From Scenedesmus sp. PABB004 (Eukaryota), in assembly GCA_014905635.1 (NCBI GenBank), contig CM026548.1:1178001-1242000 (forward strand): 64,000 bases of DNA. The letters run 5' to 3'. The notes below the pieces were generated by a model. The model saw nothing but the letters and a program-made list of their open reading frames with translations. It was not told the origin of the DNA and made no database searches. Shown piece by piece: positions 6,044 to 53,048 of this stretch (position 1 is the first letter of the stretch; the number at the start of each line of letters is the position of its first letter). A program made the translations under genes and the position numbers.

Positions 6044-8363
6044 ATGGCGGACGATGAGCTGGGCCTCTTTGGCTCCGACGACGACGAGCAGCAGCAGCAG
6101 CCGGCGGCGGCGGCGCCGCCGTCGCCGTCGCCCGGCGGCGAGGAGGCCGGCGGCGCCGACGCCGGCGCCGGCGACGCCGACGGCGACGACGGCGCGGCGC
6201 GCGCGCAGGCGGAGTACGAGGCGGGGCTGGAGGACGACATGGACGAGGATGAGCCGCCCGCCGGCGCGCGCGGGGCAGCGGACGGCGGCGGCGGCGCCGC
6301 GCCGGACGAGGATGACCTCTTTGGCGGTCCCGACGACGACGACGACGACGACGCCCCGGGCGCGGCGCCGCCGGCCGAGGCGGAGGCGCGCGGGCCGCCC
6401 ATCGACGTCCACGCGCCGCTGCTGCCGCGGTGCGCGGCCGCGGCCCCCGCGCCCTCGGCAGCACACCCCCTGCCGTGCCGACGCCGCGCCGCGCCGCCCG
6501 CCGCGCCGCGCCGCGCCACGCCGCCCGCCGCGCCGCGCCGCGCCGCGCCGCGCCGACGCCGCGCGCCGCGCGCCGCGCCTCAGGCCGCCGCCGGGGCGCG
6601 TGGTCGTGATGCGGCTGCCCAACGTGCTGCGCATCGACCCGCGGCCGTACGACCCCGAGGCCTTTGACGGCGGCGCCGAGGAGTATGTGGACGAGCGCGG
6701 CGTGACGCGCGTGCGGCCGCGCGACATCAACGTCATCCGCTGGCGATACAGGTGCGGGGGGGGGGGGGGGCTGCGCGTGCTGCTGGTCCTTGCTTGTGTG
6801 TGCGGTGTGTGTGTGTGTGTGGGGGGGGGGGGTGCGCGCTTGCTCGGGCGTGGGTGTGAGTGAGTTGCAGGGACGGGCGCTGCGGCGGCGGCCGACGCGC
6901 CGCGCCGGCGCGCGCGCCGACGCAGGCCCGGCGGCGGCGAGGGCGGCGCGCCGGCGCGCGAGTCCAACGCCCGCTACGTGCGCTGGAGCGACGGCAGCGA
7001 GGGCATCCTCCTGGGCGACGAGGTGCTGGACGTCACGCGCCAGGCCGCCGCGCGCGCGCACAGCTACCTCTTTGCCGTGCGGTGCGTTGCCTGCGCCCGG
7101 GGGGGGGGGGGGGGCAGCGCGCGCCGGGGCGGCGCGTGCCGCGGCTGCTGCCGAGGGGCCTGCGCGGCACAGGGCGGGGCCGGTCCGCCGCGCCGCCGCG
7201 TCCCGAGCCCCGACCTCGACCGTCGGACCCGCGCCACCGCCGCCGCCGCCTGCAACCGACAGGTACGACACGATCGAGGGCCAGGCGCACCTCGACCAGC
7301 GCGTGACCGTCACGCCCGCGAGCCTCGACTCCAAGCTGCACAAGCGCCTCAAAATGACCGTCACGCAGGCCGCGCACCGCGCCGACAAGGCGCGCCGCGC
7401 CGCGGCGCCGCAGCCCCGGCGCGCGCCCAGCGCCCTCGCGCGTCCCCCGGCCCAACACCGCTGCCCCCCTCCCACACACACACACACACTCACACACCCA
7501 CGCCCGCACACGCTCACACGCCCACACACCCACCCGCCCACACCCAGGTGCGCATGCACTATGCCTCCAAAAACCCGGAGCTCGAAAAGGCCGAGAAGGA
7601 AAAGGCCGCGGCCGAGGCGGCGCAGCTCAAGTGCGCGCCGCCGCGCCGCCGCTGCGAGCTTGCCGCGTGCTGCGCCGGCTGTACGCGTGCGTGCGCCCGC
7701 GCCCGCACTGGCGGCTGACAGGCCCCGCGCGCCGCCCGCGCCTCCCTCGCAGGGCCGCGCGCGAGCGCGCCGCGGGGCGCGCCGCGCCGCGGCCGCGGCG
7801 GCCCGCCTTCACCGCGGCGTACCTGGAGGAGGACGGGGCGGAGGCCTACGACGCATACGACGGCGGCGCCTACGGCTCGGGTGCGGCGGGCCGGGCCGTG
7901 CGGCCGCGCGCGCCGGCCGCCCCGCGCCCGCCGCGCTGCGGTGGGGCGGCGCCGGCACGGGGCGGCGCTCACGCAGTCGCGCGCGCCCCCGCGCGCCCCC
8001 GCGCAGGCGACGAGGAGCAGGAGGAGGAGCTGGCGCGGCGGGGCGCAGACGAGGACGCCGAGGTGCGGCGCGCGCCGCGTGCTGTGCACGGCGGCGCGCC
8101 GTCACAGCACGCCCGCCCCGGCCGCCCGCCCGACGGCCCACGCGCGCCGCGGCCGCGCCGCGCAGGCCGAGGCCGCGCAGCGCCTGCGCAGCGCCAAGCG
8201 CGCCAGCCCGCCGCCGCTGGGCGGCGGCCGCAAGCGCGGCGGCCGCGAGAGCGACGAGGACGAGCCGGACGAGCCCGCGCCGCCGCCGGCCGAGGAGCGC
8301 GCGGCGGCGGCGCCCGGCATCACCGTGCGGCGCGGCGTGCTGCTGGACGACGACGACGACTGA
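6044..8363 (+). CDS. LEO1: RNA polymerase-associated protein LEO1 (PAF1 complex)
   Basis: Acidic N-terminus MADDELGLFGSDDDE, then Leo1 motifs MRLPNVLRIDPRPYDPEAF, NVIRWR, ESNARYVRWSDGSEGILLGDEVLDV and PASLDSKLHKRL. Ends ...VLLDDDDD*. Confidence 0.9.
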
Positions 8364-40391: not shown

Positions 40392-41091
40392 AGGGGGGCA
40401 GCAGCGGGGCGCCGCGCGTGCAGCGGAGCTGGCAGCGGCGCAGCGGCGGGGCGGGGGAGGGTCTCAGCCCTCGGCGCCCCCGCACGCGAGCGGGGGGCGC
40501 TCTGATCATAACGACGGCTTTGGCGGTGGCGCAGGCTCGCGCACGGCACGGCGGCGCGCGCCTGGGCGTGCTGGCGCGCATGCGCCGGCAGCGCCGCGCA
40601 CTTGGACGGGCGGCACTTGTTTACTACTGGTTCGGTGCGGCGTGGCGCGGCGGAGGACCTGGATTGGCGTGGCGGCTGGTGGCAGGCAGGGCGTTGGCCG
40701 GCGTCCGCGCCCGAGCGCGGCGGCCGGCCCTTAGTAACGGCGGCGGTTCTGCGCGACGGCCCGGCCGCGGCGGCGAGCCTTGGCGCAGCGGCGCTCCCAC
40801 CACGCCCCAGCCCTTCCCACGCACGCAGCCGTCCACCCACGCCCCTCTCACTATGAGTACGGCGGAGGCGCTGGTAGGCTGTGGTGGCCCACCGGTGGCT
40901 CTGGTAGGCGCTGGTAGGCGCTGGTGGCCACCAGAGGGCTGCGCAGGTGGGCGCGCGCACTGATGGGATCCCATCACTGATGGGATCCCATATGGGATGG
41001 GCACTCCGGAGTGCCGCGCGTGGTCTGCCGGGCGCGAGCGGGGGATTGTTACGCGGGCCGGGCGGCGCCCCGCCAGAAATAGCAGTACTGC

Positions 41092-41484
41092 TCACGACTG
41101 TGCCCCACGCCCAGTCGCGAAATGCACCAAGCGCGACCTCCCAGACACAGGAACAAACAGCCACGTGCCGTCGTCGGCGTCTTTGCAGCCGTGCAGCGCC
41201 GCGGCAATCGCGTCGAGCGGCACAGCGCGCAACAGCGGCGCGCCGCTGCCGCGCGCAGCCTCAAACTCGTCATGCGCCACCAGCAGCAGCTCAGCGATGT
41301 CGGGGTCGCTGCCCCGTGACTTGAGCTTGAACTGACGGATGATAGCGAGCCGCGCCACGGGCTCCGCGGCGCCGCTGCCGCCGCCGCTGCTGCTGCTCGC
41401 GCCCGCCCCGCGTGGCCACTGCAGCTCCAGGAAGCAGTCGACCTCGCATGCTGACGGCTGCTCATTGCCGTGTCTGGTGCACAT
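41092..41484 (-). pseudogene. Probable C-terminal remnant of the element's transposase
   Basis: 130-aa ORF of globular composition (EVDCFLELQW...RLAIIRQF...ELLLV...RAVPLDAIAAAL...WLFVP) inside the TIRs with no DDE core. Resemblance to EnSpm transposase C-termini is from memory only. Confidence 0.4.
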
Positions 41485-41733
41485 CGCGGCACATGATCCA
41501 CGATTGAACCGCGCGCTTCAAACGCGGGCCGCCTGCGCGCGACGCTTGTCCCTCCACCGCGCCCTCGCTCCCGCAGACCACGCCGCCTCCCCTGTCGTTT
41601 AGGCAGCCCTGCTTGCGATCGCGGCACCGGTCGCGCCACGTTGTTGTTGCGCACCGGGGGGCGGGCTTGTAGCGCGCGCCTTGCCGCGCTCGCGCTCCCG
41701 TGCCCGCCGCAAAAGGCTGCGCTCCGCGAAATC

Positions 41734-43750
41734 ATGGCCCTGGAAGAGCAGCTGCGGCTGGACTGCCTTGTCCTGCGCCCGCGCGGGCCAACCGACGGGC
41801 GCGACCCCCACGCGGGCGAGATCAGGGTCTTCCTCCCTCCGCAGAATTTCGACTTCAACGCGCTGCTGGCGGAGGCGGGCCTGCCGGCGGCCCGGGTGCG
41901 CCTGTACAGCGCGCTTCAGGGCGGGATGATCGTTCTGCGCTGCGCCATCGACTCGCGCGGGGCCATCGCAAGCACGGTCCAGGCTCGCCCCGACGTGTTC
42001 ACCCTGGAAGGTGTGGGGAGAGGAGCGTGGCTGGCCGCGCCCCGCTCGTGCGCGCGGCGGCGCCGCTGCTCACCCCGGGAGAGCAAGCCTGCCCGCCCGC
42101 GCGCCCGCCCGCAGGCGACGCGGGCGACGCCTACGCTCCGCCCACCGACCTCGTGCTGTGGTACGAGATCACTGGGAGCAGCCCCGGCGACAGCCACAGC
42201 GCCGCGCCCAACGCTCATTGCGCGACGTCAGCAAACTTGACTGCAGGCAGCAAGGCAGCCAAGGGCAAGGCCAAGCCAAAGCTGCCCCGACGCGCTGATC
42301 ACATCATCAAGACGCTGACCGGCCGCCTGTGCCAGCGCACCGCCGATGGCGCGCCCGCGCCCCAAGACAACGCGGCCTTCAACAGGGGCTGGCACGAGGC
42401 CATGGCCGCCGGCATCCACGCCGCCTGCAAGGCCGCCGGCTTTGACGACGAGCGCACCGTGCGCAACGCCATCTCGCAGTGAGTGCCAGCGACCCGGGCC
42501 GGGGGCGCGTGCGGCGGCCGCGGGCCCAGGCGCGCGCGTGCGGTGCAGCGCGGCGCGACCGGCGCGACCGGCGCGGGCCCACGCATTGCCCCTTGCCGCC
42601 GGACCCCGCTGCAGGCACATGCGCACCGTGCGCAGCGAGCTTGGGCGGGAGACCTCGACGTGCACCTCGACGTGCACCGCCGACGTGCACCGCCGACTGG
42701 CGCGCGCCTGGGCCTGGGGCCTGGGCCTGGGCCTGGGCCTGGGCGCGCGCCTGGCGCAGCCAGTGCCGCCGGCGCAGCAGCAGCAGCAGCAGGCGGGGCC
42801 GCGGCGGCGGCAGTGCGCGCACGCGAAGCCGGCGCTGGCACGGCAGGCGGCCGGCGCGGCGACGGCGGCGCAGCCGCCGCTGGTGGAGTATGAGCGGCAG
42901 CGCGCGCAGAACATCGCGCGCAACGCAGCTATGCTGGCCAGGCTGGACGTCGCCGCTCCGGCGGAAGGCCTCGCGGCCGCGGCCGCGGCGCCGGCGGGGG
43001 CCAAGCGCAAGCGCGGGCGCGGCCAGGCGCAGCAGGCGCACGAGGCGCAGGAGGAGCCGGGCGACGCAGCCAAACTGCTCAGGCTCGCGCAGGCGCGAGA
43101 CAAGGTGGGGTGGCGCTGCGCCGGGCCTGTGCGGCCGCGCGCTCCGCCGCACCCGGCTGAGCACCGCTCACGCCGGGGGCGCCGTCACCGCGCGTTGCCG
43201 CCGGCCCCCGCAGGCGCTGGCCAACACGGCACAGCTGACGGCCGCCGCGGCCGCCAAGGCCAGCCAGCGCGCGGCGGCGGCCGCCGGAGAGACAACGGGC
43301 GCCCCCGGCCAGCAGACGCAGACCAGCCGCGGGCGGGCGATCAAGGCCCCGTCAAAGGAACTGCGCCCCGCCAGCCAGTACTGGATGCAGCCCAACTATG
43401 TGTCGGCGCCGGCGCTGGCCGCAGAGGCCGCCATGCGGGGCCTGCCGCAGCAGGCGCCGCGGCAGCGCGCCCGCGCGCGCGCCCAGGCGTCGCAGCAGCT
43501 GCCGCCGGCGTCGGAGCAGCAGCCGGCGCTCGGGACCGTGGTGCCAGGCGACTACGGCTCGCTCCCCAGCTACCTTGAGCAGGTCCACGCCACACCAGAG
43601 CAGTGGGGGCAGTTTATTGAGTGGCAGTCCCAGCAGCAGCAGGAGATGCTCGCAGCGGCGGCGGCGGACGGGCAGGCGGGGGAGGGGGAGGCGGAGGGGG
43701 AGGGGGAGGAACGGGAGGAGGAGGCCGGGGACACGGAGGCGAGCGACTGA
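41734..43750 (+). CDS. Transposon-borne ~555-aa protein (TnpA-like or cargo, function unknown)
   Basis: Four in-frame exons (41734-42010, 42115-42478, 42615-43104, 43214-43750) with GT-AG introns. Contains EYERQRAQNIARNAAMLARL, an NLS-like KRKRGR and an acidic tail. Confidence 0.75.
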
Positions 43751-44263
43751 TCGGCAGCCTCGTGGCGGTGTGCGGGCGGGTGGCGGGCGCCCGCTGCACC
43801 GGCGCGCTGCAGCGGCGGCGTGCCCGCGCGCCGCCGCGGGCAGCGCGCAGCGGGGCGGCGGCGGCCCCAGCGGGGCGGCGCGCTGCAGCAGCGCCGCGCT
43901 GCTGCAGCGGCGCCGGCGGGCTGGGCGGGGCGTGGGGAGCGGCAACAGGCCCGCAGCAGCAGCGTTCACGCGCCCGCCCGAGCAGCAGCTCCGCGCCCAT
44001 GCCGCACACGCGCAGCCCCGCGCCGCGGCCCGCGCGGCGCCGCGGCACCGCGCGTGGCCACCGGAAGCTACCAGAGCCGCGCGCTGGTAGCCACGGGTAA
44101 GCATAGGAAAGTTTACCGGAGGCCTCTGGTAGGTGCAGGTGCGGGTTGAGGTAGGCGCTGGTGCGCCGCTGGCGCCCCTCTCACCCCCCCTGCCTACCTG
44201 AGCCTACCAGAGCCTACCAGCGCCTCCGCCGTAGTCATAGTGTCTGAGCCGGCCGCCGCCGAC

Positions 44264-45230
44264 ATGCCGCGCCTCGCCGCCGCGGCGTACCCGCCGCGCG
44301 GCGTGGCGCTGCTCCTGACGCGCCGGCCGCTGCTCGCGATCGCAGGACGCGAGCTGGCGCTCGCCAGCGGTGCGCGCACGAGCGCGTGCGCCGCGCCCGC
44401 CCGGCGCTGCTCACGCCCCGCCGCTGCGCGCGCCCGCCGCAGCCGCCTCGGTCGTGGCGACCGCGTCCGCGTTCTTCTGGCTCTGGTCCCCGCACGTGAA
44501 CGCGCTGCGGCGCCTCCTGGGCGGCGCCGGCGCCGGCGCGGCGGCGCGCTGGGCGGCGCGCGCGGGCGCGGCGCTGGCGATCGTGGCCGAGGTGACGGCG
44601 CTCGTCAACGCACTGTTCGAGGCCCGCGCCTCCACGCTGCAGGCGGCGCTGTTCGACGCGACGCTGGCGCTCGCGGGCGTGGCCGTGTCGCCGGCGTCCG
44701 ACGCCGAGCGCGGCGCGCTGGCGGAGCTGCTGGCGCGCGACGCCGCCGCCCGCGAGGCTGCCAGGCACGTCGCCGGCGGCGGCGGTGGGCTCGCGCGCGC
44801 CGCGGCTGCGGCGGCCCACGGCGCGCGGCGCCTGCTGCTCGCGCCCGCGCCCGGCGATGGCCCCCTGCTGCGCGGCACGCGGCGGCTGCTCAGCGCCGGC
44901 GCGGCTGCGCTCGCGCCGCCGGTGCTGCCGCTGCTCGCCCTGCGGGACGGGGGCGCTGAGGCGGCGGCGCTGCTGGACCGGTATTGGACACTGAAGGGCG
45001 TGCCCCCGCGCGACGCGGCCGCGCGGCGCCTGCTGCTCGCGCAGCGCGGCGCCGAGGCGTGGAGCTTTGGCGCCGCGGCCGCCGCGCTCGGCTGGGCGGG
45101 CGCCGCGGTCCCCGGGGCGGGCTGGCTCGTGCGCCTCGGCTGCGCCGTCGGGGCCGGGCTGTATGCGACCGACCTGGAGCGCGGGCGCGTGCCGCTGGCC
45201 GTGCTGCGCGGCGGCGGCAAGCGCGAGTGA
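44264..45230 (+). CDS. EI24/RRT8(LDS)-like membrane protein
   Basis: N-terminal AYPPRGVALLLTRRPL; LQAALFDATL; C-terminal WSFGAAAAAL...VPG...AVGAGLYATDLE; one intron at ~44370-44440. Family assignment is from recalled motif pattern. Confidence 0.6.
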
Positions 45231-46854: not shown

Positions 46855-47476
46855 CCCCGCTCACCGGCAGGCCGGCGTCGGCGTCCAGCGCGATGCGCGG
46901 CGGCGCGAGTCGCGCGTTGCGGCGGCGCGCCCCCGCGCTGCTGGTCAGCGCCGTGTGGCGGGTGTGCGAGAGCGCGGCCAGCGCCATGGCGGGCGGCCTG
47001 GGGCGGTGCGGTGCGGGTGCGGGCCGGGGGGTCGGTCCGGGACTGGGCGGCCCCGCGGCCGGGCGGCGGGCTGGGCGGGGCGCACAGGGCGCGCGGAGAG
47101 CCCTGCCACGTTGGATGGGTGACCGCCGATGCGCGGCCCGCGCGCCCCCCGCGCCGGCGCGTCTGGGCGCACGCGCCGCGGCCGAGCCGCACGCGGCGCG
47201 CGGGACCCGGCCGGCGCCGGGTCGCGCGGTGCGGGGTGGCGCGATTGATGACCGCGCCGCTGCGGCGCGCCCGGGGTGCTGCGCCGCCCAGGCGCTGCCG
47301 AGGATGGTCACACGCGCCACCCGCAACGCTCCCGCGCCGCCGCCGGGCCCGCCCGCGCCGCGGCCCCCGGATGCCTGCTGGGGGACAGGGTGGAAGCCGC
47401 GCGCGCCGCGCGGCAGCGGCCGCCGCCCCACGCGGCGCGGCGCGGCCGGCTCACGGCGCGCCCGCCGCCACGCCCG
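46855..47476 (-). repeat. Left arm of a long inverted repeat (partner 52394-53048)
   Basis: Reverse complement of the right arm apart from a few substitutions, a G-run difference and a ~28-bp tandem duplication present only in the right arm. Confidence 0.95.
46865..46987 (-). pseudogene. Orphan duplicate of exon 1 of the 52916-54771 gene
   Basis: Encodes MALAALSHTRHTALTSSAGARRRNARLAPPRIALDADAGLP followed by a GTGAG donor. The rest of that gene is absent on this side. Confidence 0.75.
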
Positions 47477-50400
47477 CGCCTGCCAGCACGCCGTCCAGCA
47501 CGTCGCGCACCGCCGCGCAGCCGCCGCCCGCGCCGCCGTTCGCGGCGGCGAGCAGGGCGTCGAGGCCCAGCTGCCCCCGCTTGGCGCGCTCGTAGAGCGC
47601 ACGCGTGGCGGCGCGCAGCGCTTCGCTGTACTGCTCGCGGCCCACGCGGCGCGCCTCGAGCAGCGGCGCGAGCCGCGCCTTGGCCGCGCTGTGCGCCGCG
47701 AGCTTTGCCTGCTTCAGCGCGTCGGCGCTCAGCGCCGGGGGCCTCGCCGCGGGCAGTGGCGGGCTCGACGGCGCCGCAAACGCGACCTGCTGTGCCTGCT
47801 GCTGCTGCTCTGGCGCGCCGGCGGACGCCCCCGCTGTCGCTGCGCCCGGCCACTGCTGCTGCAGCGGCGGCGGAGCCGAGTGCGGGGTTGGGTCCCACTG
47901 CGCTGGCTGGCCCTGCACCGCGCCCGCGGCCTCGCCGCCGGCCGCCGCAGCTGCGAGGCCGGTCGCGCTCGACGCTGCGCTGCCGGCGCTCGCGCCTGGG
48001 AAGTGCTGCCACACACCCGGCGGGCCCGGCCCGCCGCCGCAGCTCGGCCCAGCCGGGAGCAGCTGCGGCTGCGGCAGCCACGGCGGCAGCCCGCCTGGCG
48101 CAAAACCGCTCGCCAGTTGCTGTGCCGCGCCCGGTGCCACGCCCTGCCACGCCCTGCCCAGTGAACCCTGGGGCTGGGCCTGCGCCGCCAGCTGCTGCTG
48201 TGACGCCGGCAGCTGCTGGAGCGCCGGCAGCTGCTGCTGGAGCGCCGGCAGCTGCTGTGCCACTGTCTGCTGCTGTGCCGCGGTCTGCTGCTGCTGGGGC
48301 GCCTCGCCCGGCAAGCCAGGTGCGGGCCGCAGCTGCGCCATCATCAGGCGCTGCTGCCAGCTCTGCGGCTGCCCCAGCTGCTCCCGGTCTGGCGGGGGCG
48401 CAGGCGCCGCCGGCCCAAAGAACCTGCTGCTTGTGCCGCCTGCTCGCGCAGCGTCGTGGCGCCCGCGCTCCTGCTGCTGCGACGGCTGCAACCGCTGCTG
48501 CTGCGACGGCTGCCCGGATCCGTTCACGCCCGCGGCTGCCGCTGCTGCCACGCCGCGCCGCACCGCCCCCAGCGTGCGCACCGAGCGCGGCAGCGAGCGC
48601 AGCTCCTGCCGCCCGCCCTGGCCGCCGCCGGCCGCAGGGCCCGAACTCGACGTCCGCGTGATGCCGGCCGCGCTGCCGCTGGCGTTTGACAGCCACCGCC
48701 CCAGCAGGCTGCTGCTGCCGGCGCGCCAGCCCTCCGGGACCTGCTGCCGCCGCAGCGCCGCCGCCACGCCGAGCTCGAGCCGGCTCGGCGGCGCGGCCGC
48801 CGCCGCCGCGCCGGCGCTGCCGCCGCCGCGGGCGGAGCCCGCTGCGCCGCTGCCGGCGCGCGCGAGGCTCGCCCGGCGGCGCTGCTCCTCGCCCCGCTCC
48901 CTGGCGGCTGTCACGCCGTCTCGAATGCTGTCCATCCAGCCCGGCTCCGCGGGGTCGGCCGGCTCCACGCGCGACGCTGCCAGGTCACGCTGACGCTGCA
49001 GCCGCGCGAGCAGCGCCGCGCGCAGCTGCGCCTCGCGCTCGCTGGGCGCGGCGGCGGAGCTGGGCGGTGCCGCCGCCGTAGCCTGCGCCGCGCTGCCGCC
49101 TGCGCCGCTAGCAAAGTAGCTGCTGGTGACGCGGCGCTGGCCGCCGCTGCTGCCGCCGGCGCCGCCCGCTGCCGCGGCGCCGCGCGCCGCGCGCCCGCTC
49201 CGGGCCCTGCCGCCGCCGGCTGCGCCTGCGGCCTCCTGTCGCACCAGCTCCAGCGCGCGCCACGCCTCCTCCTCCGAGCCGGGCGCCCCCTCCGGCGCGG
49301 CCGGCGCCGGGCGGTCGCGCGCAGCAGCGGCGCCCGCCGCCGCCGCCCGGCCGCCCGCCGCGGCAGGCGCGCCCGCTGTGGCCTGGCTGCTGCTGGCGGA
49401 GCCGCCAGCCTCCTCCTCGTCCCGCAGCTGCTGCCACGTGCGCAGCCGCGGGTCAGGCGGAGGCCCCGCAGCACCAGCGCTGCCGCCGCGCCGCGCCGCG
49501 CGGCCGTTGCGGCCTGCTGCCCGCGCCCTGCTGGCGCTGCGGCGGCCGCCGCCGCTGCCCACGCCCGCGCTCGATGCGCCGCGTCGCGGGGCGCGCGCGC
49601 TGCGCGACGCGCTGTGCGGCAGCTGCCCCTCCTCGTCCTCCTCCTCATCCTCCTCACCGTCCTCTGCATCGTCGCTGCTGCTGCTGCGCCCCTCGCTCGC
49701 GTCCTGCGAGCCCAGCAGCTGCGCGGCGTCGTCGTCGTCCGCGTCGCTCGGCTCGGCGTCCGAGTCCAGCAGCGTCAGGTCGATCGGCTCCCCAGCAGCA
49801 GCTCCAGCCCCACCGCCGCCGCCGGCGGCGGCGCGCCGCAGCCGCGCGCGGCCGGGCACGGCGCGGCCGGCCGCCGCCGGCGCCGCGCCCTGGCGTCCCG
49901 TGCGGCGCCCCGCCCCGCGCGCGCGCGCGCGGCGCGCCGCGTCGGCCGCCTCTGCCGCCTCGCGCTCGCGCACAAACTGGGCGACGCAGTCGGGGCAGAA
50001 CCAGTCGTCGAGCGGCACGGTGCTGCAGTTGACGCAATAGGTGTGGTACCCCTGGTCGCAGCCTGCGGTTCAGGCGGGGGCGGGCGCGGTCACGCCGCGC
50101 GCACGCGTGAGGCTCGCTCGCGACGGCGCGCGGGGCTGGGCGCACCGCCGCCCACACACACACACACACAAATACGCACCGTCGCAGATGAGCAGCTGCT
50201 CCTCGTCCTCGTCGCCGCCGCACACGGCGCAGCGCAGGGACTCCAGGAACGCGAGGCTCGCGGCGTCGGGGACGTAGACCTGGTCGCGCGGCGTCCGGTA
50301 CGTCCGCGTCTCCAGCGCCGCGCCGCCCACCCGCCCGCGCGGGCTCTCCGCGGCCCCGCCCTCGCCGTCGCCGCTGCCGTCGCTGTCGCCGCTGCCGGCG

Positions 50401-52299: not shown

Positions 52300-52393
52300 G
52301 AGGCTGTTGGCGCGACCGGCGCCGGGCGGCGCGCGCAGCGCTCGGCGCGGTCGCGCGCGCTGCGCCAGCAGTGTAGACTCTGGCTGACTGGGC

Positions 52394-53048
52394 CGGGCAT
52401 GGCGGCGGGCGCGCCGTGAGCCGGCCGCGCCGCGCCGCGCGGGGCGGCGGCGGCGGCCGCTGCCGCGCGGGGCGGCGGCGGCGGCCGCTGCCGCGCGGCG
52501 CGCGCGGCTTCCACCCTGTCCCCCAGCAGGCATCCGGGGGCCGCGGCGCGGGCGGGCCCGGCGGCGGCGCGGGAGCGTTGCGGGTGGCGCGTGTGACCAT
52601 CCTCGGCAGCGCCTGGGCGGCGCAGCACCCCGGGCGCGCCGCAGCGGCGCGGTCATCAATCGCGCCACCCCGCACCGCGCGACCCGGCGCCGGCCGGGTC
52701 CCGCGCGCCGCGTGCGGCTCGGCCGCGGCGCGTGCGCCCAGACGCGCCGGCGCGGGGGGCGCGCGGGCCGCGCATCGGCGGTCACCCATCCAACGTGGCA
52801 GGGCTCTCCGCGCGCCCTGTGCGCCCCGCCCAGCCCGCCGCCCGGCCGCGGGGCCGCCCAGTCCCGGACCGACCCCCGGCCCGCACCCGCACCGCACCGC
52901 CCCAGGCCGCCCGCCATGGCGCTGGCCGCGCTCTCGCGCACCCGCCACACGGCGCTGACCAGCAGCGCGGGGGCGCGCCGCCGCAACGCGCGACTCGCGC
53001 CGCCGCGCATCGCGCTGGACGCCGACGCCGGCCTGCCGGTGAGCGGGG
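52394..53048 (+). repeat. Right arm of the long inverted repeat
   Basis: Carries a stub of the RING-PHD gene 3' end (GMAAGAP*), its downstream region and exon 1 of the next gene. Confidence 0.95.

What the first reader, a model, noticed from the sequence alone, without database searches (positions are those of the whole stretch)
40846..44245. Complete CACTA/EnSpm element with perfect hallmarks but no full transposase
Seen: TCT|CACTATGAGTACGGCGGAGGCGCTGGTAGGCTGTGGT ... ACCAGAGCCTACCAGCGCCTCCGCCGTAGTCATAGTG|TCT, i.e. 37-bp TIRs (35/37), a 3-bp TSD and repeated CTGGTAGG subterminal motifs. Established: CACTA termini, 3-bp TSD and subterminal repeats define the En/Spm superfamily. No DDE transposase ORF fits inside, so it is inferred to be an internally deleted derivative mobilised in trans. 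The intact TSD and ORF suggest a recent insertion.
Basis: partly seen in the sequence, partly recalled or inferred. Interest (0 to 1): 0.72.

Follow-up and report, generated by a model that had tools for sequence, protein, structure and literature searches.

The report
Broken algal CACTA transposon, recently inserted
This is a real but ordinary jumping gene of a green alga: it landed very recently, has lost most of its cutting enzyme, and still carries an intact helper gene of unknown type.

Summary
In detail: 37-bp inverted ends (35/37) starting CACTA, TCT on both sides, and clustered CTGGTAG repeats. A second copy on contig C1 has a different flank, is identical over 592 shared bases apart from one 42-base gap, and continues into a minus-strand EnSpm-type transposase gene; a full-length relative folds like RAG1/Transib (Z 17). 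The large internal gene is an intact four-exon, 555-aa ORF2 facing away from the transposase, with no homologue found. Not supported: 'mobilised in trans'. The deleted form is single-copy, and the only other transposase found is itself broken (in-frame stop, front and right end lost), so deletion in place after insertion is at least as likely. No empty site could be tested. EnSpm elements are already known in green algae. Two points for specialists: this transposase group has H-x3-C where the clade motif is H(3-4)H (13 of 13 scorable proteins), and the head-to-head layout recurs in one distant metagenome relative.

The parts
40846..40848 (+). left target-site duplication (TCT)
40849..40885 (+). 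left terminal inverted repeat, 37 bp, begins CACTA
   Evidence: identical end at G000:C1:3166460 with another flank
40871..40917 (+). left subterminal CTGGTAG repeats (3 copies)
40966..41007 (.). 42-base palindromic block, absent from the C1 copy (exact placement uncertain by a few bases)
   Evidence: 40950-41030 folds at z = -4.0, 0 of 200 shuffles as stable
41092..41482 (-). 3' remnant of the transposase gene: last 129 codons plus stop, part of a BAH-like C-terminal domain; deletion breakpoint at 41482/41483
   Evidence: identical to the 3' end of the C1 transposase; hhalign to the family 74%, E 2.8e-5; residues 543-737 of a relative's model match BAH domains at Z 8.8
41483..41733 (.). non-coding spacer, inferred bidirectional promoter; minus-strand ATGs at 41494 and 41484, the latter in frame with the remnant
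   Evidence: no coding signal in any frame; single copy; promoter role is inference
41734..43750 (+). ORF2, 555 aa, exons 41734-42010, 42115-42478, 42615-43104, 43214-43750; GT-AG introns of 104, 136 and 109 bases
   Evidence: predicted spliced frame has no internal stop, GC3 0.90, codon score positive only in the predicted frame for 4 of 4 exons; no RNA evidence
44068..44220 (.). right subterminal CTGGTAG repeats (5 copies, both orientations)
44206..44242 (-). right terminal inverted repeat, ends TAGTG
44243..44245 (+). right target-site duplication (TCT)
44264..45230 (+). neighbouring host gene (not part of the element); its likely ATG lies 18 bases past the TSD
   Evidence: GC3 0.95 over 44439-45227; no Pfam family; start codon inferred

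Best explanation
A non-autonomous, internally deleted copy of a green-algal EnSpm/CACTA-type cut-and-paste transposon. The parent carried two genes head to head: a RAG1/Transib-fold DDE transposase reading toward the left end and ORF2 reading toward the right end. Shown: the ends, the TSD, the sister copy, the deletion and the transposase family. Inferred from how En/Spm works: the transposase cut at the CACTA ends and joined them to a 3-base staggered target cut, giving TCT twice, and the ORF2 protein is the helper that binds the CTGGTAG repeats, as TnpA does in maize (recalled; about 50%). Most likely (about 60:35 against a jump in deleted form) the full element inserted here and then lost at least 2.0 kb, probably 3-4 kb, of the transposase gene in place, by abortive repair of an excision gap or another deletion. 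With both assembled copies broken the family is probably no longer able to move in this assembly.
For: Ends, TSD, repeats. Sister copy with another flank, 592 of 592 aligned bases identical outside one gap. It runs on for about 2.0 kb of transposase gene missing from the window. 142 proteins at E<=0.001 among 1.84 billion; 6 of 46 scanned match Transposase_21 weakly and 1 Plavaka. In the 61-row alignment the second D (55 of 55 non-gap rows), C(2)C (58 of 58, 57 of 58) and a His (61 of 61) are conserved; the C1 copy has these and the E motif. Model of relative P0035 (pLDDT 87.6) matches RAG1, ProtoRAG and Transib (Foldseek E 4.7e-7; Z 17.3, rmsd 5.0, 397 aligned). Multi-copy full-length relatives of 952-1054 aa are labelled Tetradesmus obliquus. 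ORF2 has GC3 0.90, near the transposase (0.87) and below three host exon sets (0.95-0.99). Distant relative L066 has a second spliced gene head to head, 348 bases from the transposase's first ATG.
Against: Only one complete site, so the 3-bp TSD is seen once (4% chance); no empty site tested. No protein reached the Transposase_21 cut-off (best 27.5 of 28.6 bits; 39 of 46 had no transposase family at E<=0.01). The clade's H(3-4)H motif reads H-x3-C here. The fold was predicted for a relative, not for the C1 protein. ORF2 has no homologue, its likeness to the L066 gene is not significant (241 of 2000 shuffles as high), and its junction to the transposase gene is not seen in any intact copy.
Confidence: 0.9

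Rival explanations
1. The deletion arose elsewhere and the 3.4-kb form jumped here using a transposase supplied in trans.
For: Both ends and the subterminal repeats are intact, so it should be a usable substrate; an autonomous copy could be unassembled or recently lost.
Against: The deleted form is single-copy. Only three family ends exist in 40 Mb (two here, one on C1). The only transposase found is the broken C1 copy.
Confidence: 0.33
2. Pack-CACTA: the internal gene is a captured host gene, not the element's own ORF2.
For: Intact, three introns, no match to any transposon family; absent from what remains of the C1 copy.
Against: No donor copy in the genome by DNA (3 of 3 candidates scored) or protein (5 of 5); GC3 closer to the transposase than to host genes; position matches the second gene in L066. 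The C1 copy breaks off before this region, so its lack of ORF2 says nothing.
Confidence: 0.1
3. An autonomous copy exists but was misassembled: the C1 locus is a chimera and its stop codon an error.
For: The C1 copy ends abruptly at a 600-base duplicated host segment, and its in-frame TAA with a changed neighbouring codon falls on a near-invariant G-Y pair, although the shared 592 bases have no substitution.
Against: The duplicated segment is 97% identical to its partner, not 100%, which fits a real older duplicate; no second right end or ORF2 exists anywhere in the assembly.
Confidence: 0.1
4. Chance inverted repeat in 79% GC sequence around a host gene.
For: Exact 20-mer inverted pairs arose in 6 of 20 simulated windows.
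Against: Second copy starting exactly at CACTA, transposase remnant inside, repeat clustering.
Confidence: 0.01

Closest known systems
EnSpm/CACTA superfamily of plants (maize En/Spm and dSpm derivatives; sunflower Tetu1; raspberry RiCACTA1)
   Same: CACTA...TAGTG ends, 3-bp TSD, subterminal repeats in both orientations, transposase plus ORF2 (PMC4158355, PMC7139988, PMC11790086; passages read); non-autonomous derivatives are common.
   Different: TIR 37 bp against the 10-28 bp given for plants; genes head to head (tandem in plant elements, recalled); ORF2 has no Transposase_24 or Peptidase_C48 match (those domains per PMC8978399 passages); H-x3-C in place of H(3-4)H.
Green-algal EnSpm elements: Tcr3 of Chlamydomonas reinhardtii; Idaten and Jordan of Volvox carteri
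   Same: Tcr3 is classed as EnSpm and active (PMC9940879, passage read). Idaten is recalled, not read (not held), as about 9.7 kb with 36-bp TIRs, a 3-bp TSD and two oppositely oriented transcripts, which would match this layout.
   Different: No sequence comparison was possible (no Repbase or Dfam here), so family-level relation is untested.
[quoted passage not shown]
   Same: CA..TG ends, 2-5 bp TSD, DDE with C(2)C (PMC12730594, passages read); fold like RAG1/Transib.
   Different: Second His of H(3-4)H is Cys in 13 of 13 scorable relatives; ends differ from PlavakaA (TGT), PlavakaB (CATCA) and the TA-duplicating ESTA.
Ds-, P- and MITE-type deletion derivatives formed by abortive gap repair
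   Same: Intact ends around an internal deletion of the transposase gene (PMC3814204, passages read).
   Different: Not amplified; microhomology at the junction cannot be tested without the parent.

Membership tests
EnSpm/CACTA | Termini 5'-CAC(TA)...(TA)GTG-3' within TIRs | tested here: met
   35 of 37
EnSpm/CACTA | 3-bp target-site duplication | tested here: met
   TCT/TCT at the one complete site; chance about 4%; C1 copy has no right end to test
EnSpm/CACTA | Subterminal repeats, direct and inverted | tested here: met
   8 of 9 CTGGTAG near the ends; 1.69 expected window-wide
EnSpm/CACTA (CMCT clade) | DDE transposase of RAG1/Transib fold with C(2)C after the second D | tested here: met
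   For the family, not the window copy: C1 copy has second D, C(2)C and E motif; first D only in relatives; fold from relative P0035. Window keeps only the C-terminal 129 codons.
EnSpm/CACTA (CMCT clade) | H(3-4)H motif before the catalytic E | tested here: inconclusive
   First His present; the fourth position after it is Cys in 13 of 13 proteins that the pattern could score out of 142, and in 31 of 33 non-gap rows of 61. Whether Cys serves as the zinc ligand was not tested.
EnSpm/CACTA | Transposase_21 (tnp2) domain at Pfam cut-off | tested here: inconclusive
   6 of 46 relatives match below the cut-off (best E 2.1e-6); the C1 copy lacks most of this region; 0 of 7 further full-length relatives match
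EnSpm/CACTA | Second ORF (TnpA/ORF2) that supports transposition | tested here: inconclusive
   555-aa gene model present; no homology to described ORF2 domains; function not testable
EnSpm/CACTA | Excision or an empty site | not testable with these tools
   No sequencing run was listed; no relative genome is held
Plavaka / ESTA | TGT or CATCA termini (Plavaka); TA duplication (ESTA) | tested here: not met
   Ends are CACTA and the duplication is TCT (definitions from PMC12730594)
Pack-CACTA | Internal sequence copied from a host gene present elsewhere | tested here: not met
   No donor found; the assembly may be incomplete

The most novel reading that the evidence does not exclude
The element belongs to a distinct, mostly green-algal lineage of the CMCT clade whose transposase uses a C2HC zinc site (H-x3-C) and whose head-to-head ORF2 is an unrecognised DNA-binding protein family (by eye a beta-grasp-like N-terminus and a BEN-like helical domain) that reads the CTGGTAG repeats. 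The hint is a phase-2 intron at the same place after a VRxxI helix in this ORF2 and in the L066 gene, although their overall similarity is not significant. A bolder extension, that the right end or ORF2 now drives the host gene 18 bases downstream, is not excluded but has no evidence.
Probability: 0.3. Interest if true: 0.5.

Novelty: new member of a known kind. Interest (0 to 1): 0.25.

Why it matters
As a single defective EnSpm copy it is ordinary. It is a clean small case of a transposon family that seems to have jumped and then lost both assembled copies within a time too short for one substitution in 592 bases. If an active full-length relative is found it could serve for gene tagging in this algal group, as Idaten does in Volvox. 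The H-x3-C motif and the orphan ORF2 are worth noting for transposon classification and explain why Pfam misses these proteins.

Tried and rejected
Sequencing runs: none was listed, so no empty-site or expression test. Viral contigs: 7 pattern matches, none a relative. Metagenome contigs: 2 of 34 candidates were relatives, both the same distant element; no close full-length element. Pfam Transposase_21 on the own genome found nothing, but its control rang nowhere either, so it says nothing. PDB sequence searches with the transposase alignment, the two-row ORF2 alignment and ORF2 exon 3 gave nothing significant. ORF2 exon 1 folded alone gave pLDDT 45 and no fold match at Z 5 or more: no conclusion. 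The Atlas gave no usable hit for exons 1 and 2. A word-index search with exon 2 covered only proteins of 213-2000 aa; the search planned for exon 1 could not be made. ORF2 against the L066 gene: not significant. Rfam: no match. No TGTAA poly(A) signal (motif recalled) in the locus; the bacterial promoter scan is not meaningful here. I first took a TCA inside the C1 copy for its right TSD and rejected it: transposase sequence runs on to C1:3169053, where host DNA begins. The first 22 or so residues of P0001 are antisense host sequence, not transposase. One search had exon 3 one base too long; one search is the corrected model. One query (44263-44496) was in the wrong frame and is not used. A looser end pattern gave three more matches, fewer than its reversed control, taken as chance. 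Earlier scan findings: none. Paper searches showed no description of this family or of the H-x3-C motif in their listings; Repbase, Dfam, the Idaten paper and all supplements were not seen and may hold it.

Full report
Observation. The window is about 79% GC with short GT-AG introns; relatives of its proteins carry green-algal labels, so I treat the host as a chlorophyte. The arms 40849-40885 and 44206-44242 match at 35 of 37 positions, begin CACTA and are flanked by TCT on both sides. A 3-base match has about a 4% chance here. CTGGTAG occurs 9 times in the window against 1.69 expected, 8 of them near the two ends. A Markov control gave exact 20-mer inverted pairs in 6 of 20 simulated windows, so the repeat alone is strong but not the whole case.

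Other copies. In the 40-Mb assembly a 20-base end pattern with up to 2 mismatches finds three ends: two here and one at G000:C1:3166460; a looser pattern adds only chance matches. The C1 copy has another left flank (TCA before CACTA) and is identical to the first 634 bases of the element except for a 42-base palindromic block it lacks: 592 aligned bases, no substitution. The whole-element search scored only 40 of 408 candidates, so I repeated it with parts: the right end (10 of 10 scored) found no second right TIR, only worn relics of the subterminal repeats at C1:2225282 and 2228058; the spacer with ORF2 exons 1-2 is single copy (3 of 3).

What was deleted. Past base 634 the C1 copy continues for about 2.0 kb as a spliced minus-strand gene. 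Read with X at its one in-frame stop it finds 142 proteins at E<=0.001, and an identical database protein labelled as from a Scenedesmus species. Pfam barely sees the group: 6 of 46 match Transposase_21 below the cut-off, 1 matches Plavaka weakly, 39 match neither; 0 of 7 more full-length relatives match anything. The alignments show the EnSpm pattern: second D, C(2)C, an invariant His, then NLH and an ExxxE motif, with the first D only in longer relatives. A confident model of relative P0035 (pLDDT 87.6) matches RAG1, ProtoRAG and Transib over residues 1-510 (Z 17.3, rmsd 5.0, 397 aligned) and BAH domains over 543-737 (Z 8.8, rmsd 3.6, 111 aligned). The window keeps exactly the last 129 codons of this gene, 41092-41482 on the minus strand, inside the BAH-like part. 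Full-length relatives of 952-1054 aa suggest that 3-4 kb are missing in all (inference).

The C1 copy is also dead. Its stop sits on a near-invariant Tyr, and it breaks off at C1:3169053 into a 600-base host duplicate that starts with the last codons of an ATP synthase alpha gene. It has lost the first catalytic D, ORF2 and the right end. Searches with its two open frames and with a full-length relative find no other transposase of this kind in the assembly.

ORF2. A plus-strand gene runs from 41734 to 43750 in four exons with GT-AG introns of 104, 136 and 109 bases; the predicted spliced frame is 555 aa without a stop, and a codon model trained on 749 host codons is positive only in the predicted frame for all four exons and negative in all frames for the introns, the spacer and the 3' region. 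GC3 is 0.90, close to the transposase (0.87) and below three host exon sets (0.95-0.99). No homologue was found, and a single-sequence fold of exon 1 was uninformative. One distant metagenome relative, L066 (26% identity in the transposase), has a second spliced gene head to head with its transposase, 348 bases apart against 239 here. The two second genes have a phase-2 intron at the same place after a VRxxI helix, but their alignment score is reached by 241 of 2000 shuffles, so homology is a lead only. That ORF2 is intact needs no selection: the insertion is too young to have decayed.

Mechanism. Shown: anatomy, deletion, family and youth. Inferred from established En/Spm biology (PMC4158355, PMC7139988; passages read): cut-and-paste by the DDE enzyme with a 3-bp duplication, helped by ORF2; binding of TnpA to subterminal repeats is recalled. 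Because the deleted form exists once and no intact donor was found, I favour deletion at this site after a full element landed, for example by abortive gap repair as described for Ac, P, Tc1 and Mutator derivatives (PMC3814204; passages read), about 60:35 over a jump in trans. The site lies between the stop of a PPDK_N-domain gene, probably a glucan water dikinase (40391; name recalled), and a host gene whose likely ATG is 18 bases past the TSD, so that gene may be cut off from its upstream region; no expression data could be had.

Comparison and novelty. Ends, TSD and transposase meet the criteria by which fungal families were classed as EnSpm in PMC12730594 (passages read) and exclude Plavaka and ESTA. 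One clade motif departs: H(3-4)H reads H-x3-C in 13 of 13 scorable proteins of 142; I did not test whether the Cys binds zinc, so membership rests on the other features. EnSpm elements are known in green algae: Tcr3 (PMC9940879; passage read) and Idaten (title seen in reference lists; details recalled, paper not held). PMC11790086 and PMC8978399 were read as passages; other papers only as listings. Repbase, Dfam and supplements were not seen. Verdict: a real, very recent, defective member of a known kind; interest 0.25.

Noticed in passing
window 46855-47487 and 52383-53048: Inverted repeat of about 630 bases, 99-100% complementary over most of it, enclosing a minus-strand gene that looks like a RING and PHD finger protein (by eye); no obvious TSD at its outer edges.
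   Followed up: partly
G000:C1:2225282-2225427 and 2228058-2228213 (L053): Two worn copies (69-74%) of the element's right subterminal region without the CACTA end, about 2.8 kb apart in a local duplication: relic of an older related element.
   Followed up: partly
G000:C1:3160308-3160920, 3169054-3169658 and 2990091-2990362: The 3' end of an ATP synthase alpha gene occurs three times on C1; the C1 transposon copy is fused to the truncated one.
   Followed up: partly
L036:5672-7600 (G000:C1 about 3161170-3163100): 642-codon frame that looks by eye like the 3' part of a non-LTR retrotransposon, right after the first duplicate; no Pfam match.
   Followed up: no
window 40966-41007: Palindromic block of 42 bases present only in the window copy; strong DNA hairpin, a likely deletion or slippage hotspot.
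   Followed up: partly
L066:1-120 and 6620-6830; L065:1905-2107: The distant relative sits between arrays of a roughly 31-base tandem repeat, and its transposase gene seems to stop at such an array.
   Followed up: no
window 42849-42950: ORF2 exon 3 holds a YExxRxxNIxRN stretch, a motif I recall from CDCA7-like and plant transposon proteins; no call confirmed this.
   Followed up: partly
L034:4240-5000: The gene after the C1 copy looks by eye like a cytochrome P450; a 28-residue piece gave no Pfam match.
   Followed up: no
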